DNA from: Pseudomonadota bacterium
GTDB lineage: Bacteria; Bdellovibrionota; UBA2428
Direction of reading: 5' to 3'
Assembly (NCBI GenBank): GCA_018001635.1
Contig: JAGNHS010000006.1
Location: forward strand, 2,905 to 66,904
DNA: 64,000 bases
A program made the position numbers and the translations under genes. Of the stretch, positions 42,970-59,263 are shown one piece after another. The notes below the pieces were generated by a model, which saw only the letters and a list, made by a program, of their open reading frames with translations, was not told the DNA's origin and made no database searches. Positions within the stretch are counted from its first letter, which is position 1. Each line of letters begins with the position of its first letter.

Positions 42970-45900
42970 TTTTTCTCCTCAGGAATCAATAAATATTCGC
43001 AACGATCGCCGAATCCAGCATGATTTCTTTCCAATTCCGGAACCTTATCTCTTATGAGATCATTACCTTCTAAAAGTTGTGTGACGTATTCAACAGTAAG
43101 AGGTGAGAGTGGAGATTCTTCAGTTTTAAAGGCAAATTCAGCGAATTCAGCTCGGGTGCTGAGCGCGGGTTCGTCTATGATTTCTTCGAGCATTTTCATC
43201 ATGAAAACGTTGGCATTGTCCCAGGGTAGATTGGCAATGGCTTGGTCTATAGCCCAAAGAAAAATAATCGCTAAATCACTTGAGCTCAAATTTCTGTGGA
43301 GTCCTTTTTGTACTTCTTTGAGTTTGGGATTTAAAAAACCCTGATTAGAGACAAACATTTGAAAGAGGTCTCTTATTTTGTCTGTAGTGCTTGCAAATTC
43401 TTCACGCACTTCTTTTGAGTTTTTCATGGAATCAAGCCAAGCTTGAGAGTTGGATTCTTGAAATCCATTGGATTGATAAAATTTGTAAAACAAATTTTTC
43501 ATGAGCGATTCAATGTTGATAATTAAGCGGCTTATGTATTCACGTTGTCCTTCTTGTTCCTGAATTGAGCCTTTAATTTTTAAAAAATCATCTAGGGAAT
43601 CGCTCTCAAGAACGCTAGACGCGGGAAGTTTGAAAGGAATAACGGGTTTTGAATTATGATGAGCATCCATGAGGTCTTGGAATTCGGAAAGGAAACCAGA
43701 GTGGTTATTTATTTTTAATCGAACTGGGGATAGATCCAAATTCCAAAATCTTAATTCTGGACGATTTCTTAAGTTGAGATAGACTCCCGTGATGAGCGGT
43801 TTGAGGTAGTACATTTCATTTTGAAGACTCGCCCTAAAAAACTTATGATTTTGGATTGAGTTTATGAAATGATTATAAAAATTGATTCTAAAAGAGTTAG
43901 AATTAAATTCTGCGAAATCAAGTCTTCCGCGAAGGTTGTCAAAGGTGACTGGTTTTACAACAACATGTTTCTTAATTTGGTTTCTTAATGTGGTTGAATT
44001 TATAGTGGAACCACCTTCTTCCACTTGATGATCATCATTGTACCATTCATCAACATTCCAATCGTCTTTGAGGTCTTTGCTGTCATGGGTATCGCTTTTA
44101 GAGCTAGTCACATAATAGAGTGGAGCGGGGGCTAGAGAGTCATCTTTAGCTTCTGTGAATAGAGAGTTAGTAACGGGCATTAAAAAGTTTCGCGCGTGAG
44201 CTTTGGGGAAAATTTGTGCAATTTCAGAAAGAATATGTGGATTCACTAAAATCAGTTTGTTTGAAAGAGTTAATTCTTGGAGACTTCGAGCTCTGATTTT
44301 TGAAATCAAACCCGAGGCTTTGGCCTCACGTGGAAAATCACCAAAGTTAATGAGATCAGAAAAACGAGCTAAGATGGAGGGCTCATATTGAGCACCTTCA
44401 ACTTGTGAAAGTGCTGCAATGATTTGTGATTCAATAGAACTAGCATCATCGATATATTGATCTCTAATTTCACGATTGGATGCAGGGTTGATGGTTACAA
44501 ATAAAGAGATATTTCTAACAGGAATTTCGATGGTCATTTTATCTTCAAGACGAGAGACTCTGACCAAGTTGTTGTTCAGTAAGTTTTGGATATAAGACAT
44601 AACTCGACTGAGAACGTTGGCGTTCTTAGCTTTGTGAAGATCGTCAATAAGTATGAAACCTCGGTAGCCGAGAGGAAGTGATAAGAAATTGTCTAAGTGT
44701 TTCAGTGCGTCTTCAACATATAAACTTTTTCCAGTGGCTTCTTCTTTTTTATCTACCAAATCTTCTACTTTTAGGAAAAAGGCTTGAGCATTTTCATCTA
44801 AAGGTCTGTTGAAGTCGTAAACTTTTATATCGAGTAATTGGATGAGCTTCTCAAAGAAAAAAGTTTTTCCTAAACTTGTTTCACCGAAAAATACGGCTGA
44901 TGAGGGAATTTGCTTTGAACTATCGGACCCTTGAGTTTGCGAAAGAATAAGCCTGAAAATTCTTTCTTTGAGATCCAGTTGACCAGCATATCCTAGTTTT
45001 GTGAGATCCACTGCGGCTCGAGCGGTGTCTTTAATTTTATGAAGAACGTCTTCGGGTTCAAGGGATTTATAATTTAAGGGGATGGGGAAAACTTTGGCTA
45101 AAAATCTTTCTACATAGTTTTCGTCAATCACTCGACTTCTTCTGAGTTTATGGTCGTCGACTAATGATTTTCTAAAAATGGAATAGGAGCGTACAAAGGC
45201 TTCGATGGGTTCTTGATTGAGTGAATTGGCAACAGCTTCAATTCGATTGGCTAAAAATTTGGTGATGTTCAAAAACGGAGCGCTGTTTCTTTCGGCGCCA
45301 GATTCGTTTCCATTGTATCGAAATGAGTAATTCAGAGTTCTAATGTCTTCTCGATAGAATAAATTTCTCAAAATGTTAGAGCGGTGCTCTACGCTTGGAT
45401 ATTCAAGTCGAACTATTTCAAAATCTTTTTGAAGATCCATAAAATGCGACTCAAGGCCTAAATCTTTTTCTAAATCTTCGATTTGTTCAGGAGTGGCTAC
45501 AATAATTTCTGAAACGCTTGGGGTAGCTTCATCTCTTAAGCGCCATTGCTTTTTTAATTTAGGTTGGATTCTTCTACCTTCGGAGGCCAACCACCACATG
45601 ATGTGAGGGAAAATTGTATTGGGTTTGTCTATGTCGCTACGAGAAGAACTGTTTCCATCTTTGTCACTGCCTTCGTTGGGGCTGTTGGCGCTCGATTGAG
45701 CCTCGGAAGCCGTTTCAGCTAATAGCTCAGTTTTTTTCATGGCCGCAGGATCGCTAATTCTAAAAGGTTTGATGTCGCTTTTTTCTCCAACTAGTGGACG
45801 TTCATTGCGTAAAAGGTCGCTCGCATCTGCTAAAAGAACAACACTATTTTCTTGGCTGAGTCTTCTCATGGCGTCTAGATTGCCAAAGATTTCTTCTTGA

Positions 45901-48900
45901 TGAACTTTTCCACCTTGTGGATATCTGAATATTGAAAGATGGGGATTTCGAAAATTCCAGGAAGTGTTTAAATTTGGATTTCCATTAGTATCTCTTTCTA
46001 GGGCCACGTTGTAGCGACTCGACCAATGAGTCATTAAAAAGCGAAGCATGAGTTTTTTGATGTTTTCAGGGACAACTATGATTCTATGTTTAGGTTTTTC
46101 AGGTTTTTTAGAGAGCTCACTCAAAATGGGTCTTAAATTTGGGAAAACTTGAAGATCGTCTGAGGTGAGCGCACTCACCGACATTCTTCTGATGTCAGGA
46201 GTGGATCTCGGAGTGTTCGGAGGCCAGTTGTACCATTGTGAGGTTAAGAATCTTGCATCGATTTCAAATAGACCTTTGTCTACTAAGCCTGCTTTGAATT
46301 CATGAGGATGAGCTTCTTGAAGTTTTAAAAGTTTTTTAGGAGTTGTTAGAACAACAGTTGTCACAGATTTGAAGGAGTCTGATGGAGAGCTTAAATCTTT
46401 AAGGTGTCGTCCTTTTCCTTCCGTGGCTAAGAGAAAAAGTCCAGAAAGTTTATGGGGCGAAGAGGGATCGTAAATGTGATCAGACGAGGTTGAGCGTGCT
46501 GATTCGGAGAAGCTTTCTTCATCGAGTTCATCGCCACCTTGGTTTGTTTCTACAACTTCTGGTTCATCTTCTTCATGCTTGTGTTTAGTTCCTTTGTTTC
46601 TGCCGTCGTTCTCTTCTTCATCCTCTTCGTCATCTTCTGTCTTTTTGTTTGAAGCTTTAGACTCGGGATCATTATTAGCGCTTACGGTTTCGATTCCCAT
46701 TTGTCTTTCAGAGTCGCTTGAGGCGTAGTCGAGTATGCTAAACGAGGATGCACTGTCACTATCTTCAGAGTTTTTGCCGTCTGTTTCTAATATGAAAGTT
46801 TGTAAAAGCTCGTCGGAGCCTGCAAATAGTACGTTTTGTGTTGTTGATTCAGAGGCAAGTTTTAATTCCTTGCGCATTTCCCGAGCATCGGATTGATGGT
46901 CAAAGAAGTAGAGTTCAAAATCGTTTCCACCGGGTTTCCATTTAAGGGACCAACCTGTTTTTTTGTTATCGAGTTTAAGGAGCATGAGGTTATAAAAGTT
47001 GGCGTAGTCTTCGTCAGACACTACAAGGAAAGTTTTTTTACCTTTTTTAGAAGGATCTACGACTAAGGAATCTAGGTACTCGTCTAAGAGTGGGTAAAGT
47101 GGTCCTTTCCCCCCAGGTCCGAAATTTAAATCTTTATAAGTTTTAGCTTGCTCAGCTTCATTTCCGTCGAGTGCTTTGGAAAGTGTTGAATTAATTGAGC
47201 GTAATCCAGTGGAGGATGAAATGCTCCATCGACTTCCTATCCAAAATAAGCGACCCTCTTTTTCGTTTTCCTGAACAATTCTTTCTTTAAGGCGAATATT
47301 AATATTTTCTTTTGAGGGAACAACAAGTTTAGAGACGTAATTAAAACATCTCATTTTATATTTTGCAGAAAAATAATCTTCATTGGGAGTGTCAACCCAA
47401 TACAGGGCACCATTGCCATCGGGAAGCACTCGGTCGCTAATGCGATTGGCGGTCACATAACTTTTTGTAAGCCAACCTGAGGAATCTGGAATGTTGTTGG
47501 CTGTGAATTCAATTTTTCCAGCTTTGAGTTGAGATTGAATTTCGTATCCTAGCAGATACACGCCACCCGTGTTCTGACGAGTCCTTTTGAGAAAGAGCAT
47601 AACGTAAATGCTGTTAGCGTGCTTTCTTAAACCTTTAAAAACTCTTACACCCTCAATTTGAGAGAATGAAAATGGAAGCTCTCGTGTGGCGAAGAAAGTG
47701 TTCTTTATGTTTTCTCCAACTCGACCCTCGTAATTAAAAAGGGTCACAAGATTGAATTTTCCTTCTAAATTAGGTTGCTGAGAGTTGTTTGGAAGCATTC
47801 CAAACAAATGGATTTTGAAGGCTTCCAATTGCTTCGAAGATTCGCTGAGTGGAAGATGAATGTCAGTGGTGTATAGAACAGCACGAATGGAATCTTTGGA
47901 AATGGATGTTCTTGAATTTTTCTTTGTCTTTGTTTTTGAGCTATTGGAATAGATAAGCTGTCCGGGAATGAATGATGAATCATCTTTGTTTAAATGCGAT
48001 GTTGAATCAGCAGGTGTTTCGTGTCGATCTGCGGAATGCGTATCCTCAAGATAGACTCCGGTTTTTTCATTGAGTTGTGATTGTTTGTCGTTATTGAATT
48101 CTCGATAAACAACATGGGGGCTCATGATTACGGGAAACTCGTTTTTAGCTTGAAGAAATACTGTTTTCTTTTTGGGGTCGCTTTCAGAGACGTTAAGATA
48201 GGCGGTGACTCGCAGTCCTCCGGGATTTTTTTGAGAATCACTTCTATAGGTTTTGGGCCCCACGCGAGGAGTGCTGTTGTCGAAAACTAAACCAAGGTTT
48301 TCCACATTCTTGATTCGTAATTCTAGTTCTTCTTTGCTGAAACTGTACGTATTCGATATAACCTGCATGTCTTTAACGCTGACGTGACCCATGGATTCTT
48401 CAAGTTCAATCGCGAAAGTTCCCCCTCCAGGATAATATTGAGTTTTTCCTGATAAAATTAAATAATGTTTTTTGTAAACCGCACCAGAAATGAGTTCGTC
48501 ATCAGGGGTGTTGTCTGAAAATCCAAAAATGGGTGCTGATTTTCTTTTTTCGATTTTAGGTTGTGGAAGATCAAAGGACTCTAGAATTATAACGTTGTCG
48601 TTGTTGAAAGGGTCGAATTTGAGTTTGGTAAATTGTTCTTGAACTTCGACAACCTGAATACTTCTGTTTCTGGATTTTAGTCTTAACAGAATGCTTTTAT
48701 CCAATGAGAATAAAACCTCAACAGAGGAATCGTTTGAGAGAGATCGAGTTAAAAACTTTTTATTGTCTTGATCCCAGCTGAGTCTTCCTTTTTGGGGTGG
48801 AGTACCTTCATATTGAAAGGAGAGCCCATCTCCTAAGGGTTCAAAGAATTGAGTGACTCCCGAAATGGCCATGTTAGAAACTTGAGGTTCGGGTCTTTTC

Positions 48901-49844
48901 TCGAGGACATCCACTAAGGGAGGATTAGTGAGCACACTCAGTTTAAGAGATTTTCCAGAATTAATATCGATGTCTCTATATCGACTTGTAAAAGTTTTTT
49001 TATCGATTTTGGAATTGGGGTCGAGATAATCCAATAAAAGCTTCACTTTTTTTAACCAAATATCAACGAGAGGGTGCTCTTTGTCGTTTTTCCATTTTTC
49101 ATAAACTGTTTTTAGAAGATAGGGGGAGTATGCTTTGTCGGGTGAATAGTCGGCAAAAAGTCTTATGAGTCCTTGGTCTGTGGGGTGAAATCTATAATCG
49201 AGGAGCACCGGTTCAGATATTTTAAATTCACCTGTTTCGATGCCTCCGTTTTTAACAATAGCAAAAGTGATTCCGTCAGAACCCATTTGAGGAATGCCTT
49301 GCTTAACTGAGATGATATACATACACGAGTTGTCTACAGGGTATTGTACAATCGTGATGTCTTTGGGGTCCTTTATGTTTTCAAGATAAATTTTACGTTT
49401 CGTGAGAGGATCGATGATTGGGACGGGAGTGGCAAATTTGTTGGGTATTTTTTGGGATTCATTAGCGCCAATAATGAGTGAGCTGGCTGCTTTTTTTTCT
49501 GAAGTGTTTTTGTTAACGATATAAATTTGTCCATCGAGAATGACTAAGGCTTCTTGATTTCCTTGTTGAGTGACAGGAGCTAAGAGTACAAAAGTTTCAG
49601 CGGATCGCTTATTCACGCCAAGCACTTCTTTTTGAATCAGTGGAGTAGAGTTTTCAGCTCCAGTATTAAAAAAATAAATTCCCTTTTTTTTGCCATTGAG
49701 TTCAGTGTTGAATACCAACTCGTATAAGGCTCTTGCATTATGAGGATGTGGAAAAATGAAAGACCCCTCGTCGGCCGCGCGTAAGGCTCCACTTTGTCCG
49801 ACAAGTAGGGCGGCAAGGGCAATATGTTTGAGGAGGTGTCTCAT
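42966..49844 (-). CDS. Giant (2292 aa) protein: signal peptide, unassigned N-terminal region of about 880 aa, acidic linker, and Clp/Hsp100-like AAA+ modules (last one with intact Walker A/B)
   Basis: Uninterrupted 6.9-kb ORF with signal peptide MRHLLKHIALAALLVGQSGALRA|AD. Walker A is FFGETSLGKTFFFE (about 44863-44886) and Walker B is GFILIDDLHKA (about 44641-44665), followed by NISLFVTINPAS. An upstream Clp D1-like block is IIVATPEQIEDLEKDL...FEIVRLEYPSVEHRSNILRNLF. ATGA overlap with the downstream gene. Confidence 0.8.
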   Translation of the reverse strand: MRHLLKHIALAALLVGQSGALRAADEGSFIFPHPHNARALYELVFNTELNGKKKGIYFFNTGAENSTPLIQKEVLGVNKRSAETFVLLAPVTQQGNQEALVILDGQIYIVNKNTSEKKAASSLIIGANESQKIPNKFATPVPIIDPLTKRKIYLENIKDPKDITIVQYPVDNSCMYIISVKQGIPQMGSDGITFAIVKNGGIETGEFKISEPVLLDYRFHPTDQGLIRLFADYSPDKAYSPYLLKTVYEKWKNDKEHPLVDIWLKKVKLLLDYLDPNSKIDKKTFTSRYRDIDINSGKSLKLSVLTNPPLVDVLEKRPEPQVSNMAISGVTQFFEPLGDGLSFQYEGTPPQKGRLSWDQDNKKFLTRSLSNDSSVEVLFSLDKSILLRLKSRNRSIQVVEVQEQFTKLKFDPFNNDNVIILESFDLPQPKIEKRKSAPIFGFSDNTPDDELISGAVYKKHYLILSGKTQYYPGGGTFAIELEESMGHVSVKDMQVISNTYSFSKEELELRIKNVENLGLVFDNSTPRVGPKTYRSDSQKNPGGLRVTAYLNVSESDPKKKTVFLQAKNEFPVIMSPHVVYREFNNDKQSQLNEKTGVYLEDTHSADRHETPADSTSHLNKDDSSFIPGQLIYSNSSKTKTKKNSRTSISKDSIRAVLYTTDIHLPLSESSKQLEAFKIHLFGMLPNNSQQPNLEGKFNLVTLFNYEGRVGENIKNTFFATRELPFSFSQIEGVRVFKGLRKHANSIYVMLFLKRTRQNTGGVYLLGYEIQSQLKAGKIEFTANNIPDSSGWLTKSYVTANRISDRVLPDGNGALYWVDTPNEDYFSAKYKMRCFNYVSKLVVPSKENINIRLKERIVQENEKEGRLFWIGSRWSISSSTGLRSINSTLSKALDGNEAEQAKTYKDLNFGPGGKGPLYPLLDEYLDSLVVDPSKKGKKTFLVVSDEDYANFYNLMLLKLDNKKTGWSLKWKPGGNDFELYFFDHQSDAREMRKELKLASESTTQNVLFAGSDELLQTFILETDGKNSEDSDSASSFSILDYASSDSERQMGIETVSANNDPESKASNKKTEDDEEDEEENDGRNKGTKHKHEEDEPEVVETNQGGDELDEESFSESARSTSSDHIYDPSSPHKLSGLFLLATEGKGRHLKDLSSPSDSFKSVTTVVLTTPKKLLKLQEAHPHEFKAGLVDKGLFEIDARFLTSQWYNWPPNTPRSTPDIRRMSVSALTSDDLQVFPNLRPILSELSKKPEKPKHRIIVVPENIKKLMLRFLMTHWSSRYNVALERDTNGNPNLNTSWNFRNPHLSIFRYPQGGKVHQEEIFGNLDAMRRLSQENSVVLLADASDLLRNERPLVGEKSDIKPFRISDPAAMKKTELLAETASEAQSSANSPNEGSDKDGNSSSRSDIDKPNTIFPHIMWWLASEGRRIQPKLKKQWRLRDEATPSVSEIIVATPEQIEDLEKDLGLESHFMDLQKDFEIVRLEYPSVEHRSNILRNLFYREDIRTLNYSFRYNGNESGAERNSAPFLNITKFLANRIEAVANSLNQEPIEAFVRSYSIFRKSLVDDHKLRRSRVIDENYVERFLAKVFPIPLNYKSLEPEDVLHKIKDTARAAVDLTKLGYAGQLDLKERIFRLILSQTQGSDSSKQIPSSAVFFGETSLGKTFFFEKLIQLLDIKVYDFNRPLDENAQAFFLKVEDLVDKKEEATGKSLYVEDALKHLDNFLSLPLGYRGFILIDDLHKAKNANVLSRVMSYIQNLLNNNLVRVSRLEDKMTIEIPVRNISLFVTINPASNREIRDQYIDDASSIESQIIAALSQVEGAQYEPSILARFSDLINFGDFPREAKASGLISKIRARSLQELTLSNKLILVNPHILSEIAQIFPKAHARNFLMPVTNSLFTEAKDDSLAPAPLYYVTSSKSDTHDSKDLKDDWNVDEWYNDDHQVEEGGSTINSTTLRNQIKKHVVVKPVTFDNLRGRLDFAEFNSNSFRINFYNHFINSIQNHKFFRASLQNEMYYLKPLITGVYLNLRNRPELRFWNLDLSPVRLKINNHSGFLSEFQDLMDAHHNSKPVIPFKLPASSVLESDSLDDFLKIKGSIQEQEGQREYISRLIINIESLMKNLFYKFYQSNGFQESNSQAWLDSMKNSKEVREEFASTTDKIRDLFQMFVSNQGFLNPKLKEVQKGLHRNLSSSDLAIIFLWAIDQAIANLPWDNANVFMMKMLEEIIDEPALSTRAEFAEFAFKTEESPLSPLTVEYVTQLLEGNDLIRDKVPELERNHAGFGDRCEYLLIPEEKK

Positions 49845-49862: not shown

Positions 49863-52463
49863 TTATTTTTTGTCGTGCTTGTTGACGTGCTCCACTAAGA
49901 ATCGAAGCGCTTGCACGAAAGATCTCTCGTTGTATCCGTATCTTTCCAAGTTGCTGAGTATCTTTTGCCCAGCCGTTTGAGTTTCAGTGGCCACGGATCT
50001 TCCTTGCATGAAATCAAGGAGGCTTTGGTAGCTGTTAGTTTTTAAGTTCTGACTCATCAACCAATCAGAAATAGCTTTTTCAAGCTTAATCCACATGGGG
50101 AGGGGTGATCCGTCAGTATTATGAAGCGCTAAATTGGCAACATAAGCTTGGAGATCTGGGGGATTAAGATCGTCGCCCCAGCGTTTTCTAAAGGCCTTTT
50201 TAATTTCAGTGAGTCTATCAAAATTGATGGCAGTAGGTATGTCGCCTTTTGATTTAGTGTGGTGTGTGGCTTTAGAGTCTTGCGCTAAGTGTGAAATTTC
50301 CGAAGTGACTGCATCGTAAATACTGCGCACTTTATTGGTGTCGTTAGCAATAATCGAGTTCACATCGTTCATGAGCTTAGGAAGTATGAGCTCTGCTGCA
50401 ATTCTCTCGGCGAGTTCGAGCCATTTAGCGTATTCAGGGCGTTCCTTTTGAAATTGGTTTTCGTGAAGGGTGAGTCTAAAGGCGTCTTTTATTTCTACAG
50501 GAGTTAAAGTGTTTGAATGTCCGGGAGATTGTGCGAGTTCAAGGGCCTTTTTAAAGACCACTTCAATATCGCGTTGTCCAATTCCATTATCGCCTTCATT
50601 GAGAAGAGCTTCCTTTGAGAATTCCGTTAAAGCCGCTAGAACTTCTTGATTCTCAACAACTTCATCTCCTGTGATAATTCGAAGACGGTCAATTGGGTCG
50701 GTGAACCATCTTAGATCGGGACGTGTGATACGAGTGAGAATGTTGGCGTCTTTGAGTTTATCGATATTTGTTTCAAGCGAAGAGCCTGCGGCAATGCATC
50801 CCAAGAAATATAGCGAATAGGGTGAAATATCGACAAAGGAACTTTTGCTAGCGCTGATTTCAGCTGGCGAATCAATTTTAACTCTTACGGCGTAATGACC
50901 CTCAGGGCCTGAAATATTTCCATTGCTGTCGGGTTCTGCATAAATTTCCTTGATGAGGGGTGAATTTGAGCTTTCGTTTAGTGTGGCGAGATTTTTGTGT
51001 TCTGTTGAATCCAATTTGCGTGCACTAAAGTTATTGGGTTTGAGAGTGAGTAAAAGTGCAAGCTCTCTCCATCTTGGATGGAGGAGGTTTTTCATGGCAA
51101 TATGTTGTAAGCGAGATAGAAGAGCGTCGGTGTCCATGCGTTTTTTGGAATCTGCAATGGAACTATAGTTTGCAGAAAACACATTAAAGGTGTCCATCGC
51201 TAAAGCGGGGGTGTCTGAACCTTTGGCGACGCCTTCTTGTAATACAGAAAGTAGGAAGTGGAGAACTACGGGGTCGTTTCGAGTAACGTCGTCCCAAATG
51301 ATCATGGAGCCATCGTTTTGAGAGAGGGGTCCGTTAAAATGGAAGCCGAGAGTGTTATTGGCGCCTTTAATTCTTGCGGCTACGTTGGCAGTTCCAATTA
51401 AAGAAGAGGTGTCGGGGGCTTCTTCCATAGGACGAATAATGGGATCGCGATTGGAGGCAAGGCTGATGTCTTTTCTTGCAATACCCACAAAATTTTCAAA
51501 TATGGCTAAATAGTCAGCTACGGTGAGAGAAGTTGCTTTTGTGGCTTTTAAAATATGTTTTTTATAAAAAGGAATGAGAAATTCTCTTAGGATATCTTCT
51601 GCATGAGAATCGCGGGCGACAGCTTGGCCAGGATTTCTTTCGTAGAAATCACCAATGTCGAAACCTAACATTTTAGAGGCGGTGGCACCTAGAGTTTTTG
51701 CGTAAGCCACTTTGAGTTCGGTGGGAAGTAGGCTGAAGGGACTTCTTTGAAGGCTTGTAACATTAAGGCGATCGCTATCTTTGACTAAGAATTGATCGAG
51801 TCTTTGACCTAATGAAGGATCAGTTTGTTTTATCATGTCCAAATTTTTCCAAAAATAGGTGTATTCCTTGAATAGAGGATCTCGAACTGAGAGGTGGGCT
51901 AGGGCATATCGAATGACGTATTCGAGAACTGTTTTTCCAGTTCCTGGAGGTCCCTTTAAAAGTGGTCCTTTACTTCCGCGCATACCTTGTGCGGCTTCGG
52001 AGATGATTTTTGCCAAGCTCGAGCTAGCTTCATATTGGCCTACGAGAAAAAGTCCGCCAGTTGCGGGCAAGGCATCATGATAGACTTTGGGAACATTATA
52101 ATATTGGTGCTTGTAGACGGGGTCTAAAACTCGGCGATATCCAAAATTATTCAAGACCGCTAATTGTTTTTGATCAGCATTCATTAAAAGTAAGGGATGC
52201 TCTTTTATGAGATCGGGTAATTTTGAAAAAGGATACTCTACGGCGTATTCTTCGGTGCCGGCAATAGCTAGTTGAGCCACTGTTTCGGGCACTAAAAGAG
52301 TTGAGCATAATTTTGGATCAACATGAAAACTTTTAGGAGTGCTAGTTGTTGATTTAGCCGCGGATGCTTTTTTGCTTTCTGCTGCAAATGAAAAATTTTC
52401 TAAGCTCATTAAAAAAATAACGACGTGTGTAATTTTTAGAATTGTAGGTAGGCTTTTTCTCAT
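49863..52463 (-). CDS. PrkA/YeaG-like AAA+ protein (866 aa) with signal-peptide-like N-terminus
   Basis: PrkA-type N-terminal AAA blocks are SLAKIISEAAQGMRGSKGPLLKGPPGTGKT (Walker A about 51932-51955) and DGSMIIWDDVTRNDPVVLHFLLSVLQEGVAKGSDTPALAMDTFNVFSANYSS. A long helical C-terminal region follows. N-terminus is MRKSLPTILKITHVVIFLMSLENFSFA|AE. Confidence 0.75.
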   Translation of the reverse strand: MRKSLPTILKITHVVIFLMSLENFSFAAESKKASAAKSTTSTPKSFHVDPKLCSTLLVPETVAQLAIAGTEEYAVEYPFSKLPDLIKEHPLLLMNADQKQLAVLNNFGYRRVLDPVYKHQYYNVPKVYHDALPATGGLFLVGQYEASSSLAKIISEAAQGMRGSKGPLLKGPPGTGKTVLEYVIRYALAHLSVRDPLFKEYTYFWKNLDMIKQTDPSLGQRLDQFLVKDSDRLNVTSLQRSPFSLLPTELKVAYAKTLGATASKMLGFDIGDFYERNPGQAVARDSHAEDILREFLIPFYKKHILKATKATSLTVADYLAIFENFVGIARKDISLASNRDPIIRPMEEAPDTSSLIGTANVAARIKGANNTLGFHFNGPLSQNDGSMIIWDDVTRNDPVVLHFLLSVLQEGVAKGSDTPALAMDTFNVFSANYSSIADSKKRMDTDALLSRLQHIAMKNLLHPRWRELALLLTLKPNNFSARKLDSTEHKNLATLNESSNSPLIKEIYAEPDSNGNISGPEGHYAVRVKIDSPAEISASKSSFVDISPYSLYFLGCIAAGSSLETNIDKLKDANILTRITRPDLRWFTDPIDRLRIITGDEVVENQEVLAALTEFSKEALLNEGDNGIGQRDIEVVFKKALELAQSPGHSNTLTPVEIKDAFRLTLHENQFQKERPEYAKWLELAERIAAELILPKLMNDVNSIIANDTNKVRSIYDAVTSEISHLAQDSKATHHTKSKGDIPTAINFDRLTEIKKAFRKRWGDDLNPPDLQAYVANLALHNTDGSPLPMWIKLEKAISDWLMSQNLKTNSYQSLLDFMQGRSVATETQTAGQKILSNLERYGYNERSFVQALRFLVEHVNKHDKK

Positions 52464-52608: not shown

Positions 52609-53148
52609 ATGCGAGTCGTTTTTGTTTTTTCTTTTTTATGGGCTGCGCTTCTTTATTCTGCCACAACGAGTCAAGATTCTGCGAGCACTATATATTTTAA
52701 GGTGCTCAAGGGTTTTGATGTAGAAAAAAAGAAATCAAATGCTGAAGTAGACGCATTAGTCGGCAAAAAAATTCGCATTCCTGGATTTATGGTTCCTCTT
52801 GAATATAAATCTCAAAAGGTGACTGAGTTTTTGTTAGTACAGTCTCTTCCCTCTTGCATTCACGTACCTCCCCCCTCTCCTAATCAAACCATTATGGTGA
52901 AGATGAAGGATAAAAAAACAGTGTCTTTGAGTATGGATCCCATTTGGGTGACAGGAATCTTAAAATTGGTCAAACAAGACAAATATACATTTGGTGATGC
53001 CGTTTATAGCATTGAGGGCGAGTCTTCTGCTCCTGTAGATTCAAAAGACTTTAATAAAGTGGGTTTATTTATGGGAGATCAGGTGGATATGGCTCCTTTA
53101 GAGGAGAATCCTTTTGGTGGTGAGAGTAAAACTAAGAAAAAGAAATAG
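52609..53148 (+). CDS. Exported DUF3299 domain protein
   Basis: Signal peptide is present. The DUF3299-like core is KKIRIPGFMVPLEYKSQKVTEFLLVQSLPSCIHVPPPSPNQTIMVKM...PIWVTGILK. Confidence 0.65.
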   Translation: MRVVFVFSFLWAALLYSATTSQDSASTIYFKVLKGFDVEKKKSNAEVDALVGKKIRIPGFMVPLEYKSQKVTEFLLVQSLPSCIHVPPPSPNQTIMVKMKDKKTVSLSMDPIWVTGILKLVKQDKYTFGDAVYSIEGESSAPVDSKDFNKVGLFMGDQVDMAPLEENPFGGESKTKKKK

Positions 53149-53185
53149 AAATAGTTTAAGAAATAGACTTAAAGGGTACGACATT

Positions 53186-53761
53186 ATGAAAAAGCATTTT
53201 TTAAAATCCCTAACATTAAGTTTGTGTCTCTCAATAACTTTGATGGCCAAAGAAAAACATCATCATCATGAGTCTTTGGCAAAGCATATTCACGGTGAAG
53301 CTAATCTCAATTTGATACTTGAAGATGATAAAAAGGGTGAGCTTGAATTTGAGGCCCCTGGCATGGATGTCGTTGGATTTGAATACGATGCCAAAACACC
53401 CAAGGAAAAAGAGAAGCTCAATCAAGTTTTGTCAGAATTTAAAAGCAAAGCTCAAGAATTATTTGTTTTGGATGCAAGTCTAAAATGCGTTTTAACTCCT
53501 AAAGAGGTGGCCTGGGAATCGGAGGATCACGAAGAGCCTGAAGGCGTTCATAGAGATCATGAAAAACAGCCCGTCGCAGAACATCATGCGATTGAAGCTT
53601 CTTACTCTATAAATTGTCAAAAGCCTCTTAAGGGGACTCGTTTTAATTTGGAGCTTTTCAAAAAATTTAAATCGTTAAAAAAAGTCAATTTTCAGTATAT
53701 GGGCAGCAATCTTCAGCGGGCCAGCGAGTTGTCTGCTGGAAAGTCTAGCATTGAGCTCTAA
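53186..53761 (+). CDS. Exported His-rich DUF2796 protein (ZrgA-like periplasmic zinc-binding protein)
   Basis: ATG 53186 gives signal peptide MKKHFLKSLTLSLCLSITLMA. Then KEKHHHHESLAKHIHGEANLNLILEDD...LEFEAPGMDVVGFEY, typical of DUF2796. More His/Glu lies in the middle (HEEPEGVHRDHEKQPVAEHH). Confidence 0.7.
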   Translation: MKKHFLKSLTLSLCLSITLMAKEKHHHHESLAKHIHGEANLNLILEDDKKGELEFEAPGMDVVGFEYDAKTPKEKEKLNQVLSEFKSKAQELFVLDASLKCVLTPKEVAWESEDHEEPEGVHRDHEKQPVAEHHAIEASYSINCQKPLKGTRFNLELFKKFKSLKKVNFQYMGSNLQRASELSAGKSSIEL

Positions 53762-54455
53762 AGAGTCCATTTCTGTAGAGGCTTTAGAGTTTTCATATGT
53801 AAGAAATTCTAAGCCCTTGTTAAAAATTCCTGATTTAAAAATATTAAATGGAGATAGAGTTTTTTTATTTGGCCCAAGTGGTTCCGGAAAAAGCACCTTG
53901 CTTTCATTGCTCACTGGAGTTTTGAAACCTCAAAAAGGCAAGATAACACTTTTAAATAATTTTGAAATATCTCAGGCTAATACTATGGCGGCCGATATTT
54001 TTCGGGGGGCGCATATGGGGTATATATTCCAGCAGTTTAATTTGCTTCCTCATTTAAGCGTGCGCGAAAATATTTCATTAGTTTTGGATTTAAATCCTCT
54101 CCGATTAAATAAAGTTTTAAAATCAAGCACTGTTGAATTGGAAATTAAAAGATTAGCTCAACATTTAGAGATTGAAAATATCTTAGATCGCTCTGCAATG
54201 GCTATTAGTGTTGGTCAGCAACAACGAGTTGCCGCTGCTCGTGCCTTAATTGGTGCTCCGGACATTATTATTGCTGATGAACCCACATCTTCTTTGGATA
54301 CAGATCGCCGAGATCTTTTTATGAAAATGATTCTTAGTGAAGTTGAATTGAGTCAAAGCACTTTGATTTTTGTGAGTCATGATCAAAGTTTGATGAAGCA
54401 TTTTAATAAGCATTTTTCTATTCTGGATTGGAGTGCAGAGGGAGTCGTGCAGTGA
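53751..54455 (+). CDS. ABC transporter ATP-binding protein (MacB/LolD-type)
   Basis: Walker A GPSGSGKST, Q-loop, signature SVGQQQRVAAARAL, Walker B IIIADEPTSSLD and H-loop VSHD. The TTG start overlaps the upstream stop. Confidence 0.9.
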   Translation: MSSKESISVEALEFSYVRNSKPLLKIPDLKILNGDRVFLFGPSGSGKSTLLSLLTGVLKPQKGKITLLNNFEISQANTMAADIFRGAHMGYIFQQFNLLPHLSVRENISLVLDLNPLRLNKVLKSSTVELEIKRLAQHLEIENILDRSAMAISVGQQQRVAAARALIGAPDIIIADEPTSSLDTDRRDLFMKMILSEVELSQSTLIFVSHDQSLMKHFNKHFSILDWSAEGVVQ

Positions 54456-55711
54456 TTTGGTGGCGTTTGGCGATTCGTTCTCTTGTCTTTCGTTGGCAGG
54501 CTTCATTACTAACTGTAGTTTCTATGGCGCTCAGTGTGGCGCTTTATTGTTCGGTTGAATCTCTGCGGTTGGGGGTTCATGAAACTTTTGAACAAACTGT
54601 AAGTCAAACAGATCTTATCGTGGGTGCTCGAAGCTCACCTCTGAATATTATTTTATACACCCTTTTTCATATGGGCGATGCTACGAACAATCTTCGTTAT
54701 GAAACTTTTAAGAAAATTTCATCGCATCCCGTAGTTCGATGGAGCATTCCTTTTTCTTTGGGTGATTCCCATCGTGGCTTTAGGGTGATGGCCACTAATG
54801 AAAGTTTTTATGAGTTTTTTCAATTTCGTGGGAATTGGCATATTGAATTTAATTCTGGAACTTTAGCCAAAGATGTTTTCGATGTTGTTTTAGGTTCCGA
54901 AGTGGCGGCCCGCTTGAATTACAAACTGAATGACAGAGTTGTGATTGCCCATGGAATGAGTTCAGAGAAGGGTGCTTTTTCAGAGCACAGTGATAAACCA
55001 TTTCATGTGGTGGGTATTTTGAAGCGCACAGGGACACCGGTCGATCGGGCTCTTTTTATAACTCTTGAAGGAATGGAAGCTATTCATATTAATTGGAAGG
55101 ATGGCTCAGCAGATGAATCTTCAACTCCTAAAGCGATAACAAAAGATCAGATTAAGGTGACACAAATCACATCTTTTCTATTGGGGCTGAAGTCGCGTGT
55201 TGCAGTTTTACATATGCAAAGGATGATTCAAAATTATGCGGATGAGTCTCTTGAGGCGGCTATTCCTGGTTTTGTACTGAGCCGCTTTTGGGAAAGTCTT
55301 GGAGCCTTTGAGCGCACTTTAAGTTTAATGACTCTAGCTATCTTTATAGTGGGGCTTATAGGTATGTTGATTGCATTGCTGACGTCTTTGGATCAGAGGC
55401 GAAGAGAAATGGCTGTCTTGAGGGCTTTGGGTTCTAGGGCTTTTCAAATATTTATTTTACTTTTAAGCGAAGCTTATTTTTTGATGGCTTCTTCTATTGT
55501 TGCAGGTTTGGGTCTCTATTCTCTTTTGTTCTTTCTCTTTCGTGATTTTGTTGAGTCAAAATATGGTGTGGTTTTAGTCTTGTGGCCCTTTGATTCTGAG
55601 AATCTCTATATTCTTTTAGGTCTCTTTGTGGCGGGAACTATCGCGGCATTAATACCTGCAGCTGTTGCCTACCTTAGAAGTGTTTCAGATGGATTGCAGC
55701 AAAGAACTTAG
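54428..55711 (+). CDS. ABC transporter permease, FtsX/MacB-type
   Basis: N-terminal TM, a large periplasmic domain, and a C-terminal FtsX 3-TM bundle (RRREMAVLRALGSRAFQIFILLLSEA...). The likely true start is the in-frame GTG at 54452, which overlaps the ATPase stop (GTGA). Confidence 0.85.
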   Translation: MECRGSRAVIWWRLAIRSLVFRWQASLLTVVSMALSVALYCSVESLRLGVHETFEQTVSQTDLIVGARSSPLNIILYTLFHMGDATNNLRYETFKKISSHPVVRWSIPFSLGDSHRGFRVMATNESFYEFFQFRGNWHIEFNSGTLAKDVFDVVLGSEVAARLNYKLNDRVVIAHGMSSEKGAFSEHSDKPFHVVGILKRTGTPVDRALFITLEGMEAIHINWKDGSADESSTPKAITKDQIKVTQITSFLLGLKSRVAVLHMQRMIQNYADESLEAAIPGFVLSRFWESLGAFERTLSLMTLAIFIVGLIGMLIALLTSLDQRRREMAVLRALGSRAFQIFILLLSEAYFLMASSIVAGLGLYSLLFFLFRDFVESKYGVVLVLWPFDSENLYILLGLFVAGTIAALIPAAVAYLRSVSDGLQQRT

Positions 55712-55865: not shown

Positions 55866-57881
55866 ATGAATGTGGGGAGATTGTTGAATTTTAACTTTGT
55901 ATTGCAAGAAAAGTCATTTTCATTTTTAAAAAAAATTGTTTTTAACATCTCCTGGTGTTTATTGTTGACGCTTTCAGCCTCTTCTTTAACCTATTATTGT
56001 CAGGATGGAGTTAATTGCTATTTGTCCGATGGAGCCACTACAACTTTTCATAATTATGGCACAGACTGGAAGGCTAGTGCTAGCACTGGTTATGCCGGAG
56101 ACATCGGTGTCATTTCGACTGACGGAAGCATAAGAGTGACGTCTTCGGTGGCTTTAGCTGGTGCAGTGGCTTCTATTCAGTTCACTTCAGGTTCTTATAT
56201 AGTTGAATTGATATCGAGCGGAGGTCATGGTTCTGCGTTTCAACATGCAGCACATATGTGGGGTGAATGTGGTTTTGCCACTGAATGTGATAATCCAACG
56301 GAAGCAGGTTCGTTGGATGATGACTTCACTAAAGATCCCAGTACTGGGTTAGCCAAAAAAGAAACTTGGGGCGATCCAGTAAAAGCAAATTTATTGTCAA
56401 CGAAAGGGTTTCATGGGGTTGAAGGTTCTACAGATGGCTCGTCTAGTAGCCGAATTCATACATTTGAAGTTTTGCAAAATCCAGATACGGGTGCACAAAA
56501 TAGAATTCACTCTATAGTAAATATGGCTAATTTTGTAGCCCCCGATGGACGATCGGAATATAATTGGTGCAAGCCAAAACATTTATTGAATGTGCCTTCA
56601 ACTCAACCCATGGGGGATTGGTTGGAGAAATGGGTTGATGTTGGTGTGAATTTAAACGGCACACTATACCCTGATATCATTAGAACCAAATCTCGTTTTG
56701 TACCAGGTAGAGGAGCTCCGTTTGCAGATAATCGATTGATTGCTTATTTGAATGCTGGAGTTTTTACATGGCAAGCATTGTATAATCCTCGCACTGATAA
56801 ATATGTTGACCTTTTAGCTATAAGTCGTGACCTTGGATATTATGATTATTTATATAAATTAAATAAAGATTTTCAGGATACAGCACTTTGGCTTTCAACT
56901 GCTGTAGCAAGCGGAGTCAGTGCGGCAGATATTGAACTAGGAAAATCTTATCAAGAAACTCGCATCAAGCAATTAACGGATCTTCATCAAGCTTTCGAAA
57001 CTGAAAAATATGAGCGTATGAAAAAGGCGACACCTCCATCGGAGCTTGATAATTTTATTTATCAACCCTGGGTTGCTATAGCTACCAATCCTGATGGAAA
57101 TGTTGCAATGGGAATGATGGTTATGCCAACGTCGAGAGACGTGAATCATGTTATTTGGCAAGTGTCTTATACCGACGCCTCTTGGCAGATTGCCAATCCC
57201 AACTACCCTTATAGTTATGTTACTTTGAATGCACATGATTTTTACCGTAATGTAAAAAAAGATCAGGAATATATTATGAATTCCTATGCATTTGTTGGAA
57301 CTTTTGATCGTGTTAAAACCTTAGCTAAAGCAGTCTGCAAATCAAAAAATCTTTGCGGTTCAGATACAAGTTTATTGCAAAAACCCCCTGAAGACCCGAG
57401 CTTTTTTACCTCAGATAGTAACACTCTACCAGTTTGTCGGTACTATAGTGTAGATACGGGAAGATATACCGAACTTTCTTACGGGCGATATGGAAGTGGA
57501 AGTTCTTGGTTTGGGGGAAATTGGTATATTGGAATACCTGGAGATATTTACGCTGGAGGTTATTCCATTGCTAAATTGGCAAATCCTGATGATGGTAAAT
57601 TCGCCATTGTTGGTGCAGATATTCCACTTTATCGTTGTCTTTATGGTCATGCAAAAAGTGGGACTTATTTTACATTTGTTTCTAAAGATGAAAAATGCGA
57701 AGGCCAAGTGAAGCAAGATATTTTAGGATATGGCTGGTCCTCCAATACGGGAGGGTTAAAAGAGTTGGCTAGGTGCTTTAGGTCAACGCCTTCACAGACT
57801 TCGATATTAACTACTAACCCCGGATCTGATTGTTCTGGATGGAGTGAAATTATACATTTAGGGGTGTGGGCTATACCATGA
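55866..57881 (+). CDS. Large exported hypothetical protein (671 aa), translationally coupled to a prepilin gene
   Basis: Hydrophobic N-terminus (ISWCLLLTLSASS). Gly/aromatic-rich. The Cys-containing C-terminal part has repeated motifs (VCRYYSVDTGRYTELSYG; PLYRCLYGHAKSGTYFTFVSKDEKCEG). The stop overlaps the next ATG (ATGA at 57878-57881). Confidence 0.6.
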   Translation: MNVGRLLNFNFVLQEKSFSFLKKIVFNISWCLLLTLSASSLTYYCQDGVNCYLSDGATTTFHNYGTDWKASASTGYAGDIGVISTDGSIRVTSSVALAGAVASIQFTSGSYIVELISSGGHGSAFQHAAHMWGECGFATECDNPTEAGSLDDDFTKDPSTGLAKKETWGDPVKANLLSTKGFHGVEGSTDGSSSSRIHTFEVLQNPDTGAQNRIHSIVNMANFVAPDGRSEYNWCKPKHLLNVPSTQPMGDWLEKWVDVGVNLNGTLYPDIIRTKSRFVPGRGAPFADNRLIAYLNAGVFTWQALYNPRTDKYVDLLAISRDLGYYDYLYKLNKDFQDTALWLSTAVASGVSAADIELGKSYQETRIKQLTDLHQAFETEKYERMKKATPPSELDNFIYQPWVAIATNPDGNVAMGMMVMPTSRDVNHVIWQVSYTDASWQIANPNYPYSYVTLNAHDFYRNVKKDQEYIMNSYAFVGTFDRVKTLAKAVCKSKNLCGSDTSLLQKPPEDPSFFTSDSNTLPVCRYYSVDTGRYTELSYGRYGSGSSWFGGNWYIGIPGDIYAGGYSIAKLANPDDGKFAIVGADIPLYRCLYGHAKSGTYFTFVSKDEKCEGQVKQDILGYGWSSNTGGLKELARCFRSTPSQTSILTTNPGSDCSGWSEIIHLGVWAIP

Positions 57882-58525: not shown

Positions 58526-58533
58526 AAAATATT

Positions 58534-59181: not shown

Positions 59182-59263
59182 GTGCTACGCGTTAGTGTTT
59201 GTGTTGATGCTTCAGTCTACTTTAAGAAAGATCAGATAAACTGTAATTGAAATTTAGATTAAA

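What the first reader, a model, noticed from the sequence alone, without database searches (positions are those of the whole stretch)
49863..52463. PrkA-like AAA+ protein that is about 200 aa longer than usual and starts with a signal-peptide-like sequence
Seen: PrkA-type Walker A context (AAQG...GPLLKGPPGTGKT) and the conserved LLSVLQEG...FSANYSS block are present. However, they begin only around residue 150, after MRKSLPTILKITHVVIFLMSLENFSFA|AESKKASAAKSTTSTPKS and an extra N-terminal region. Established: PrkA/YeaG proteins are cytoplasmic ATP-dependent enzymes of about 630-690 aa. Inference: an ATP-dependent enzyme targeted outside the cytoplasm is unexpected. It would make sense only if it acts inside another cell (for example, prey) or if the N-terminus is a membrane anchor.
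Basis: partly seen in the sequence, partly recalled or inferred. Interest (0 to 1): 0.55.

Follow-up and report, generated by a model that had tools for sequence, protein, structure and literature searches.

The report
Exported PrkA-type ATPase module in predators
A predatory bacterium encodes a PrkA/YeaG-type ATP-driven enzyme and two partner proteins that all carry export signals, so a normally cytoplasmic stress module seems to have been copied and sent outside the cytoplasm, where ATP is not supposed to be available.

Summary

- **Identity.** It is a full-length, very divergent PrkA/YeaG homologue (hhalign 99.3% against E. coli YeaG). All the ATPase residues are intact.
- **N-terminus.** It starts with a Sec-type signal peptide (predicted cleavage FSFA27|A28), then a disordered tether. 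No dedicated predictor was available, so this rests on heuristics.
- **Not a start-codon artefact.** The protein belongs to a discrete family of 197 clusters, median length 834 aa. Named members are Bacteriovoracaceae, Bdellovibrionales or Oligoflexia. About 94% of 125 full-length members have the same N-terminal pattern.
- **Operon.** In nine independent loci the gene heads a three-gene operon. It is followed by a 1800-2300 aa protein with a conserved P-loop, then a SpoVR+DUF444(vWA) fusion. Both partners had classical signal peptides in all eight loci with DNA.
- **Cysteines.** All three proteins are about five-fold depleted in Cys. Each keeps one conserved terminal Cys-x3-Leu motif.

Best reading: an exported paralogue of the cytoplasmic PrkA-YeaH-SpoVR module. 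I infer it is assembled outside the predator's cytoplasm and may be fuelled by prey nucleotides. Export, ATP use and function are predictions only. I found no description of it in the literature searched.

The parts
49863..52463 (-). Gene for the 866-aa PrkA/YeaG-type AAA+ protein (precursor).
   Evidence: ORF list and translation. Pfam PF06798 scores 26.6 bits against a cut-off of 25; PF08298 scores 20.5 bits, below threshold. hhalign of the family against YeaG gives 99.3%, E 2e-20, over YeaG residues 12-634. AF2 model pLDDT 91.1.
52383..52463 (-). Predicted Sec signal peptide, aa 1-27 (MRKSLPTILKITHVVIFLMSLENFSFA), with cleavage after A27.
   Evidence: Heuristic n/h/c analysis. Modelled as a helix over residues 5-27 that precedes a disordered stretch, residues 29-47 in model numbering, which is true numbering minus 1. 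The pattern is conserved across the family.
52323..52382 (-). Low-complexity Lys/Ser/Thr/Ala-rich tether, aa 28-47.
   Evidence: pLDDT below 50 for model residues 29-47. It is the most variable segment between the window and the 97% identical L001.
52293..52307 (-). Cys53-x3-Leu57 motif (CSTLL).
   Evidence: Cys is present in 117 of 125 family members, with L/F/M/V/I at +4 in 106 of 117.
51930..51953 (-). Walker A, GPPGTGKT (aa 171-178).
   Evidence: K177 is invariant in 125 of 125 members.
51288..51305 (-). Walker B, MIIWDD (aa 387-392).
   Evidence: D391 is D in 119 of 125 members. Position 392 is E in 118 of 125 and D in this clade.
51105..51179 (-). Sensor-1 N432 (in FSANYSS) and arginine finger R451 (in LLSRLQ).
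   Evidence: Both are invariant in 125 of 125 members. They align to YeaG ...HSNESEW... and ...AFLDR.... The roles are assigned by position.
50334..50690 (-). PrkA C-terminal domain match (aa 592-710).
   Evidence: Pfam PF06798, E 5.7e-6.
42966..49844 (-). Second operon gene: a 2292-aa protein. Features: signal peptide aa 1-23 (49776-49844); Walker A GETSLGKT (44862-44885); Walker B ILIDDLH (44634-44654); C-terminal CEYLL motif (42987-43001).
   Evidence: The weak Pfam AAA_22 hit is. The gene starts 18 nt after the PrkA-like stop.
39760..42969 (-). Third operon gene: a 1069-aa SpoVR + DUF444/YhbH (vWA) fusion. Features: signal peptide aa 1-25 (42895-42969); CQEHL motif (42880-42894); SpoVR domain (41779-42672); DUF444 domain (39778-40371); MIDAS DLSGS (40267-40281).
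   Evidence: Pfam SpoVR 46.6 bits and DUF444 60.7 bits, both above cut-off. TIGR02877 scores 62 bits, far below its cut-off. Invariant residues are and coordinates. The start overlaps the upstream stop by 4 nt.

Best explanation
**What it is.** The gene encodes a precursor whose first 27 residues form a Sec-type signal peptide, predicted to be removed by signal peptidase I after FSFA27. The mature protein of about 839 aa has three parts:
- a disordered Lys/Ser/Thr-rich tether;
- a short helix carrying the single conserved Cys (C53-x3-L57);
- a complete PrkA/YeaG-type AAA+ ATPase with a PrkA C-terminal domain.

**Operon.** It is the first gene of a translationally coupled operon. The partners are an exported 2292-aa protein with its own conserved P-loop domain, and an exported SpoVR-DUF444(vWA/MIDAS) fusion.

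**Inferred biology.** Together they form an extracytoplasmic paralogue of the cytoplasmic PrkA-YeaH(YhbH)-YcgB(SpoVR) module, confined as far as sampled to Bdellovibrionota. I infer three further steps:
- The chains are exported separately and assemble outside the cytoplasm through their shared terminal Cys-x3-Leu motifs, by disulfide or a shared metal site.
- The AAA+ ring, by analogy with AAA+/vWA pairs, remodels or unfolds a target that the vWA/MIDAS partner holds.
- ATP comes from prey, either in the bdelloplast or in the prey cytoplasm.

**Shown versus inferred.** Shown by computation: homology, intact ATPase motifs, conserved signal-peptide pattern, operon conservation, Cys pattern. Inferred: actual export and cleavage, complex formation, ATP source, substrate.
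For: **Homology.**
- hhalign of the family against YeaG gives 99.3%, E 2.1e-20, 596 aligned columns over YeaG residues 12-634.
- Pfam PrkA C-terminal domain is above its cut-off.
- The AF2 model has pLDDT 91.1 and pTM 0.88.

**ATPase site under selection.** K177, N432 and R451 are invariant in 125 of 125 members. Walker B is D in 119 and E in 118 of 125.

**Signal peptide is a family hallmark.**
- 117 of 125 members have a hydrophobic core in the first 70 aa.
- At the chosen site, -1 is A82/G17/S14 and -3 is A62/V26/S13. Position -2, which my scoring ignored apart from a proline penalty, is bulky or aromatic.
- [AVS]-x-A occurs in 72 of 116 members, against 38.0 +/- 4.4 in shuffles (maximum 47).
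- The n-region net charge is +1.66, against -0.75 for the first 15 mature residues. The n-region is more positive in 87 members and less positive in 16.

**Operon conservation.** PrkA-like, giant, then SpoVR+DUF444 occur in the window and in L002/L003, L006, L008, L010, L012, L013, L014 and the P0152 locus.

**Partners are export-tagged.** Both carry classical signal peptides, mostly followed by acidic or neutral mature N-termini, in all eight loci with DNA (L008 holds only the first 60 residues of its fusion gene).

**Cysteine pattern.**
- The operon has 7 Cys in 4227 aa (0.17%). Cytoplasmic proteins of the same window have 1.1%, and YeaG has 0.93%.
- One conserved terminal Cys-x3-[LF] motif is present in each of the three proteins. 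In L013 it is the only Cys in 2299 aa.

**Organism.** A Bacteriovoracaceae MAG holds a 97% identical copy. Named relatives are Bdellovibrionales, Bacteriovoracaceae and Oligoflexia.
Against: - No dedicated predictor (SignalP, DeepTMHMM) could be run, and export is not shown experimentally.
- The periplasm is held to contain no ATP (PMC7391070). A Sec substrate is translocated unfolded (established knowledge), so it could not carry a bound nucleotide across.
- In this protein the early mature region is Lys-rich (AESKKASAAKS, net +2 in 15 residues). From my own knowledge, this would slow Sec export in E. coli.
- This clade has Asp instead of the catalytic Glu in Walker B (DD), which may weaken hydrolysis.
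- One locus (L007) has the PrkA-like gene alone.
- All members sampled come from uncultured genomes. Predation is therefore assumed from taxonomy, and 'Oligoflexia' may include non-predators.
- ATP availability in the bdelloplast is not established. Only uptake of prey nucleoside monophosphates is documented (references listed in PMC7529429).
Confidence: 0.55

Rival explanations
1. The module is exported, but it works in the predator's own periplasm or envelope without ATP turnover. The P-loop sites would bind nucleotide or another phosphate ligand only structurally or as a sensor. The module would act in envelope or peptidoglycan maintenance, echoing the cortex phenotypes reported for SpoVR and CbgA.
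For: - There is no ATP in the periplasm (PMC7391070).
- spoVR mutants in Bacillus and cbgA mutants in Myxococcus affect spore cortex (cited in PMC5430801).
- A signal-peptide-bearing N-acetylmuramoyl-L-alanine amidase gene lies directly downstream in the window.
- This clade has DD instead of DE in Walker B.
- The enzymatic activity of canonical PrkA is itself disputed (PMC9512850; PMC13001217).
Against: - Walker A Lys, sensor-1 Asn and the Arg finger are invariant in 125 of 125 members, and Walker B DE is kept in about 94%. Such full conservation of the whole site fits catalysis better than mere binding.
- The giant partner also keeps Walker A and Walker B in the five loci aligned; a Walker A pattern is present in all eight.
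- The downstream amidase gene is not conserved in other loci.
Confidence: 0.2
2. The N-terminal hydrophobic segment is an uncleaved membrane anchor. The ATPase body stays in the cytoplasm (N-out/C-in), tethered to the inner membrane.
For: - Several members have uncharged stretches of 18-25 residues (median 19).
- Many members, including this one, have Lys-rich stretches shortly after the hydrophobic segment.
- This topology would remove the ATP paradox.
Against: - The window protein has only 11 uncharged residues between K10 and E22, which is too short to span a bilayer.
- The family-wide charge bias is positive before the core and negative after it, in 87 members against 16.
- An A-x-A-type site is enriched after the core (about 7.7 sd above the shuffle mean).
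- The two partner proteins have textbook cleavable signals, mostly with acidic or neutral mature ends.
- Cys is depleted five-fold.
Confidence: 0.1
3. The start codon is mis-assigned. Translation starts at M19 or later, and the protein is an ordinary cytoplasmic PrkA paralogue.
For: - M19 is an in-frame ATG and aligns with a Met in P0002.
- There is no strong Shine-Dalgarno sequence before M1. The GGTG in the window is GCTG in L001.
Against: - 117 of 125 independently called relatives encode the same n/h/c pattern, which random upstream sequence would not give.
- P0003 (45% identical) has no internal Met in its hydrophobic segment.
- There is no purine-rich site before M19.
- Codons 1-26 show no substitution against L001, while the upstream intergenic region differs at about 7% of positions.
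- Starts at V58 or later would delete the conserved Cys53.
Confidence: 0.03

Closest known systems
Canonical PrkA/YeaG - YhbH/YeaH (DUF444) - SpoVR/YcgB module (B. subtilis sporulation, E. coli starvation response)
   Same: - Full-length homology to YeaG, with the AAA+ N-terminal part and the PrkA C-terminal domain.
- Genetically linked to DUF444 (vWA) and SpoVR domains.
   Different: - All three proteins carry signal peptides.
- The PrkA-like protein is about 220 aa longer, with insertions.
- SpoVR and DUF444 are fused, in the reverse of the canonical gene order.
- A 1800-2300 aa P-loop protein is inserted between them.
- The proteins are Cys-depleted, each with a conserved terminal Cys motif.
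- Sequence divergence is extreme: a profile of this protein and two close relatives pulled out only 197 clusters, the best 150 of which fit this family by length.
- BALOs appear to keep a separate canonical operon, bd0228-bd0231 (BSR 0.68 to B. marinus). These are attack-phase core genes (PMC5430801).
MoxR-type AAA+ / vWA pairs (NorQ-NorD, CbbQ-CbbO, RavA-ViaA)
   Same: - An AAA+ ATPase is genetically coupled to a vWA/MIDAS protein.
- The MIDAS motif DxSGS is present in the fusion protein.
   Different: - Those systems are cytoplasmic (from my own knowledge).
- Here the ATPase has a large PrkA C-terminal domain.
- Membership in the MoxR clade was not established; sigma-54 activators, ClpB and Lon score equally well.
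AAA+ ATPases that work outside the cytosol: Plasmodium PTEX HSP101 (parasitophorous vacuole) and torsins (ER lumen)
   Same: - From my own knowledge, both are AAA+ proteins with signal sequences that act beyond the producing cell's cytosol.
- From my own knowledge, HSP101 acts at a parasite-host interface.
   Different: - These are eukaryotic and not specifically related.
- This is an analogy of logic, not membership.
[quoted passage not shown]
   Same: It is a precedent for a signal-peptide-bearing, ATP-dependent enzyme in bacteria (bioRxiv 10.64898/2026.03.22.713542 and PMC10799422).
   Different: - It has an unrelated fold.
- As a ligase it acts through an enzyme-AMP adduct (from my own knowledge); an AAA+ motor needs continuous ATP supply.

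Membership tests
PrkA/YeaG family (Pfam PF08298 AAA_PrkA + PF06798 PrkA) | N-terminal AAA_PrkA ATPase domain with Walker A/B, sensor-1 and Arg finger | tested here: met
   Pfam PF08298 scores only 20.5 bits, below its cut-off of 25. Profile-profile alignment to YeaG gives 99.3%, with the motifs in register. The catalytic residues are invariant in the family.
PrkA/YeaG family (Pfam PF08298 AAA_PrkA + PF06798 PrkA) | PrkA C-terminal domain | tested here: met
   PF06798 scores 26.6 bits against a cut-off of 25, over aa 592-710. The hhalign alignment extends to YeaG residue 634 of 644.
PrkA/YeaG family (Pfam PF08298 AAA_PrkA + PF06798 PrkA) | Cytoplasmic protein of about 630-690 aa without a signal peptide | tested here: not met
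   The protein is 866 aa, and the family median is 834 aa. It has a signal-peptide-like N-terminus. The YeaG N-terminus, MNIFDHYRQRYEAAKDEEF, has no hydrophobic segment.
PrkA/YeaG family (Pfam PF08298 AAA_PrkA + PF06798 PrkA) | Operon or regulon link with separate DUF444 (YeaH/YhbH) and SpoVR (YcgB) genes | tested here: inconclusive
   Both domains are present in the operon. They are fused into one exported protein, and a giant gene is intercalated.
PrkA/YeaG family (Pfam PF08298 AAA_PrkA + PF06798 PrkA) | ATPase, kinase or protease activity | not testable with these tools
   The activity is contested even for canonical members (PMC9512850; PMC13001217).
Sec-dependent cleavable (SPase I) signal peptide | Positively charged n-region, hydrophobic h-region of about 7-15 residues, and small residues at -3 and -1 | tested here: met
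   In the window protein: R2, K3 and K10; the core ITHVVIFLMSL; S at -3 and A at -1 (FSFA|A). The scoring is my own heuristic, not a trained predictor.
Sec-dependent cleavable (SPase I) signal peptide | Experimental export and cleavage, or classification by SignalP/DeepTMHMM | not testable with these tools
   No such predictor or experiment was available.
Bacterial lipoprotein (SPase II lipobox) | L-[AS]-[GA]-C lipobox, with the Cys at +1 of the cleavage site | tested here: not met
   The conserved Cys usually lies about 7-30 residues after the A-x-A site, behind a low-complexity linker.
Tat signal peptide | Twin-arginine S/T-R-R-x-F-L-K motif in the n-region | tested here: not met
   There is no RR motif in the window protein (MRKSLPTILK). 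By eye, no RR consensus is seen in the family N-termini.
Known anti-phage defence systems (PADLOC) | Match to any PADLOC model | tested here: not met
   None of the three proteins gives a hit.

The most novel reading that the evidence does not exclude
Bdellovibrionota export a three-protein, two-ATPase machine: a PrkA-type AAA+ ring, a giant P-loop scaffold, and a SpoVR-vWA adaptor, stapled together through single terminal cysteines. The machine would operate at the predator-prey interface on prey-derived ATP. It would unfold, extract or translocate prey macromolecules, as a bacterial counterpart of the Plasmodium PTEX HSP101 logic. This would be the first AAA+ motor shown to work outside a bacterial cytoplasmic membrane.
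Probability: 0.2. Interest if true: 0.9.

Novelty: new variant of a known kind. Interest (0 to 1): 0.72.

Why it matters
Textbook envelope biology holds that no ATP-driven machine can work beyond the bacterial inner membrane, because the periplasm has no ATP.

Here a whole phylum of mostly predatory bacteria conserves an operon in which two P-loop ATPases and their vWA/SpoVR partner are all tagged for export. Two outcomes are possible:
- There is a usable nucleotide pool where these proteins end up, for example a leaking prey cell.
- PrkA-type proteins have an ATP-independent role.

Either answer would help in two ways. It would give a new handle on the unresolved function of the widespread PrkA-YeaH-SpoVR module. 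It would also bear on how intraperiplasmic predators process prey contents. The single conserved cysteines give a simple, testable assembly hypothesis.

Tried and rejected
**Searches that led nowhere.**
- Word-index homologue search with the single protein found only 2 relatives.
- The same search with the 125-sequence alignment was swamped by generic Walker-A words and gave nothing new.
- With P0013 as query it found only unnamed metagenomic relatives.
- The genome-contig scan found only the 97% identical MAG copy.
With A6 it used only the Walker A pattern and returned one irrelevant locus, L011.
- PDB sequence searches found no PrkA-type structure. For the giant protein they found nothing significant.
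- The afdb50 library was unavailable.
- hhalign of the giant against the PrkA family showed only P-loop-level similarity.
- The promoter and terminator scan gave counts equal to shuffles and was uninformative.
- PADLOC gave no hits, so a defence-system reading was dropped.

**Ideas considered and rejected.**
- Equating this operon with B. bacteriovorus bd0228-bd0231. That operon has three separate genes and a BSR of 0.68 to Bacteriovorax. This is far too conserved for this family, which is only about 25% identical between orders. It is therefore probably the canonical cytoplasmic copy. This is an inference.
- Lipoprotein and Tat readings (see the membership tests).
Full report
**1. Observation**

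The ORF at 49863..52463 is real, but it lies on the minus strand (866 aa, ATG at 52463).
- AAQG...GPLLKGPPGTGKT at aa 157-178.
- LLSVLQEG at aa 404-411.
- FSANYSS at aa 429-435.

An in-frame TAA four codons upstream makes M1 the first possible start. The only other candidates before the conserved Cys53 are M1 and M19.

The N-terminus is MRKSLPTILKITHVVIFLMSLENFSFA|AESKK. It has a positive n-region, an 11-residue uncharged core, and Ser at -3 / Ala at -1. E. coli YeaG is 644 aa with its Walker A Lys at position 116. Here the Lys is K177.

**2. What the protein is**

Pfam gives only a marginal PrkA C-terminal hit (26.6 bits against a cut-off of 25) and a sub-threshold AAA_PrkA hit. NCBIfam gives nothing.

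A profile of 125 relatives aligns to YeaG over nearly its whole length. Family columns 66-821 align to YeaG residues 12-634, with probability 99.3% and E 2.1e-20. The protein is therefore a genuine, very divergent, full-length PrkA/YeaG homologue.

Only about 57-61 of the extra residues are N-terminal. The rest are internal insertions.

The AF2 model is confident (pLDDT 91.1, pTM 0.88). It shows a helix over residues 5-27, a disordered segment at 29-47, and a folded body from about residue 48. These are model numbers, which equal true numbering minus 1.

**3. A discrete family**

An exhaustive HMMER search of 1.84 billion representatives found 197 clusters at E <= 1e-3, of which 132 had E <= 1e-30. 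The full-length ones among the best 150 are 790-940 aa long; the shorter hits look like fragments. The median of 125 full-length members is 834 aa.

Named members are 'Bacteriovoracaceae', 'Bdellovibrionales', 'Oligoflexia', 'Deltaproteobacteria' or simply 'bacterium' MAGs. No cultured organism turned up. The exact window protein is also present in NCBI assembly GCA_020050275.1.

The ATPase residues are strongly conserved:
- K177, N432 (sensor-1 position) and R451 (Arg-finger position) are invariant in 125 of 125 members.
- Walker B is D in 119 and E in 118 of 125 members.
- The window clade has D-D at Walker B.

**4. The signal peptide is a family hallmark**

Nearly every full-length member starts with an n/h/c pattern. 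My heuristic scoring gave these results:
- 117 of 125 members have a strongly hydrophobic 8-mer in the first 70 residues.
- 103 of 125 also have a positive n-region and a (-3,-1) site.
- At the best site after the core, -1 is A82/G17/S14 and -3 is A62/V26/S13.
- Position -2, which the scoring ignored apart from a proline penalty, is bulky or aromatic (L, F, H, Y, W). This is typical of SPase I sites.
- [AVS]-x-A occurs in 72 of 116 members, against 38.0 +/- 4.4 (maximum 47) when the following 40 residues are shuffled.
- The n-region net charge is +1.66, against -0.75 for the first 15 mature residues. The n-region is the more positive side in 87 members and the less positive in 16.

As a control, 20 of 46 window ORFs pass the crude test, while GuaA, GuaB, PurN, the sigma-54 activator and the class II aminoacyl-tRNA synthetase homologue do not. 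One positive is therefore unremarkable. A 94% family rate is remarkable for a family whose canonical relatives are studied as soluble cytoplasmic proteins.

Two further points argue against a mis-called start. P0003 has no internal Met in its hydrophobic segment. Codons 1-26 are identical between the window and L001, while the upstream spacer differs at about 7% of positions.

**5. The operon**

Directly downstream on the same strand lie two more genes:
- A 2292-aa ORF, 18 nt after the PrkA-like stop. Its only Pfam signal is a weak AAA_22 hit.
- A 1069-aa ORF whose start overlaps the upstream stop by 4 nt. It is an N-terminal SpoVR domain (46.6 bits) fused to a C-terminal DUF444/YhbH domain (60.7 bits).

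The same three-gene order is found in L002/L003, L006 (Oligoflexia, 527-kb contig), L008 (Bdellovibrionales), L010, L012, L013, L014 and the locus of the most distant listed member, P0152. L007 has the PrkA-like gene alone.

In all eight loci with DNA, both partners start with a classical signal peptide, mostly followed by an acidic or neutral mature N-terminus; L008 holds only the first 60 residues of its fusion gene. Examples are MRHLLKHIALAALLVGQSGALRA|ADE and MKTFLIILALSFSFVSIA|ADK.

The giant protein keeps an invariant Walker A (G1654...GKT1661) and Walker B (D1734-D1735). The fusion protein keeps an H-V-x-G-H motif in its SpoVR part, and a MIDAS motif in its vWA part (D897-x-S-G-S, T958, D988).

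**6. Cysteine pattern (new, unexplained)**

The three window proteins contain 7 Cys in 4227 residues (0.17%). For comparison:
- 11 cytoplasmic proteins of the same window have 1.1%.
- 9 other export-tagged proteins of the window have 0.9%.
- YeaG has 0.93%.
- The family as a whole averages 0.20%.

What remains is one conserved Cys per protein, always in a terminal C-x-x-x-[L/F/M] motif:
- After the signal peptide and tether in the PrkA-like protein. The Cys is present in 117 of 125 members, with a hydrophobic residue at +4 in 106 of 117.
- Shortly after the signal peptide in the fusion protein: CQEHL, CEKKF, CIETM, CERLL, CENDL, CEARL, CRNAL, CHKIL.
- Some 7-18 residues from the C-terminus of the giant protein: CEYLL, CEYLF, CASLL, CDKML, CQKFL, CERYL, CQSLL, CSGLL. 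In L013 it is the only Cys in 2299 aa.

Purging of stray cysteines while keeping single ones fits an oxidising compartment. It suggests intermolecular disulfides or a shared metal site that holds the complex together. This is an inference.

**7. Relation to what is known**

- BALOs have an attack-phase 'core' operon, bd0228-bd0231, annotated as serine protein kinase, hypothetical protein and SpoVR (PMC5430801). Its BSR of 0.68 to Bacteriovorax is far higher than this family allows, since members are only about 25% identical between orders. That operon is therefore most likely the canonical cytoplasmic copy, and the operon described here a second, exported paralogue. This is an inference.
- The activity of canonical PrkA is disputed. 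It has been described as a kinase, as an ATP-dependent protease (PMC9512850), and as an AAA+ ATPase with neither activity (PMC13001217).
- 'There is no ATP in the periplasm' (PMC7391070).
- Lig E is a precedent for a periplasm-targeted ATP-dependent enzyme.
- I found no paper describing an exported PrkA module.

**8. Mechanism, with likelihoods**

- **Most likely (0.55).** This is a Sec-exported PrkA-type AAA+ ATPase that forms an extracytoplasmic complex with the giant P-loop protein and the SpoVR-vWA fusion. I infer that it works at the predator-prey interface on prey-derived nucleotides. Bdellovibrio is known to take up prey nucleoside monophosphates intact (references listed in PMC7529429), but ATP availability there is not shown.
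- **Rival (0.2).** Exported, but without ATP turnover in its own periplasm.
- **Rival (0.1).** An uncleaved N-out/C-in anchor with a cytoplasmic ATPase. Arguments against: the 11-residue core in this protein, the family charge bias, A-x-A enrichment, the partners' signals and the Cys depletion.
- **Rival (0.03).** A mis-called start codon.

**Caveats**
- The early mature region of this protein is Lys-rich.
- This clade has DD at Walker B.
- All evidence for export is heuristic.
- All relatives sampled are uncultured.

**9. Verdict**

The finding is a new variant of a known kind. It is of high interest because it either challenges the 'no ATP outside the inner membrane' rule or points to a prey-directed AAA+ machine.

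Noticed in passing
window 2034..3176 (-): A 380-aa ORF with a Pfam APH phosphotransferase (kinase) domain (83 bits). It has a signal-peptide-like N-terminus, MTLEGLFLLVAFLLIPLSHA|ENNS. This is a second ATP-using enzyme family in the window with an export-like start, though its n-region lacks a positive charge.
   Followed up: no
window 6087..7793 (-): A single 568-aa ORF combines NuoB (Oxidored_q6, aa 37-144) and NuoD (Complex1_49kDa, aa 298-568). It is a fused NADH dehydrogenase subunit, next to a NuoG-like ORF at 4293..6071.
   Followed up: no
window 55866..60385 (+): A 671-aa ORF without any Pfam hit is followed by ORFs with type IV pilin-like N-termini (..YGFTIVEVVMSVGIG....NAFTIVQVMVALALAG..). 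This looks like a minor-pilin cluster.
   Followed up: no
window 38143..39591 (-): A 482-aa protein with a signal peptide and a C-terminal N-acetylmuramoyl-L-alanine amidase domain lies 168 nt downstream of the operon on the same strand. This neighbour is not conserved in the other loci.
   Followed up: partly
window 52609..55711 (+): A DUF3299 / ZrgA / ABC ATPase / FtsX-MacB permease cluster, probably for zinc uptake, is transcribed divergently from the PrkA-like gene. The same neighbours appear in L015 but not in distant loci.
   Followed up: partly
window 24440..25477 (-) and 10043..12979 (-): Two signal-peptide-bearing proteins, typical of a predator's secreted hydrolase repertoire. One is an S1/P1 nuclease. 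The other is a 978-aa protein with a beta-lactamase fold, DUF5060 and a collagen-binding-like domain.
   Followed up: no
L007 10001..12463 and 21594..22463: This is the one locus (1.6-Mb contig) where the PrkA-like gene stands alone, without the giant and fusion genes. An ankyrin-repeat protein gene lies nearby.
   Followed up: no
window 42987..43001, 42880..42894, 52293..52307 (-): The same short Cys-x3-Leu motif sits at a terminus of all three operon proteins. These proteins are otherwise almost free of cysteine. Its role is unexplained.
   Followed up: partly
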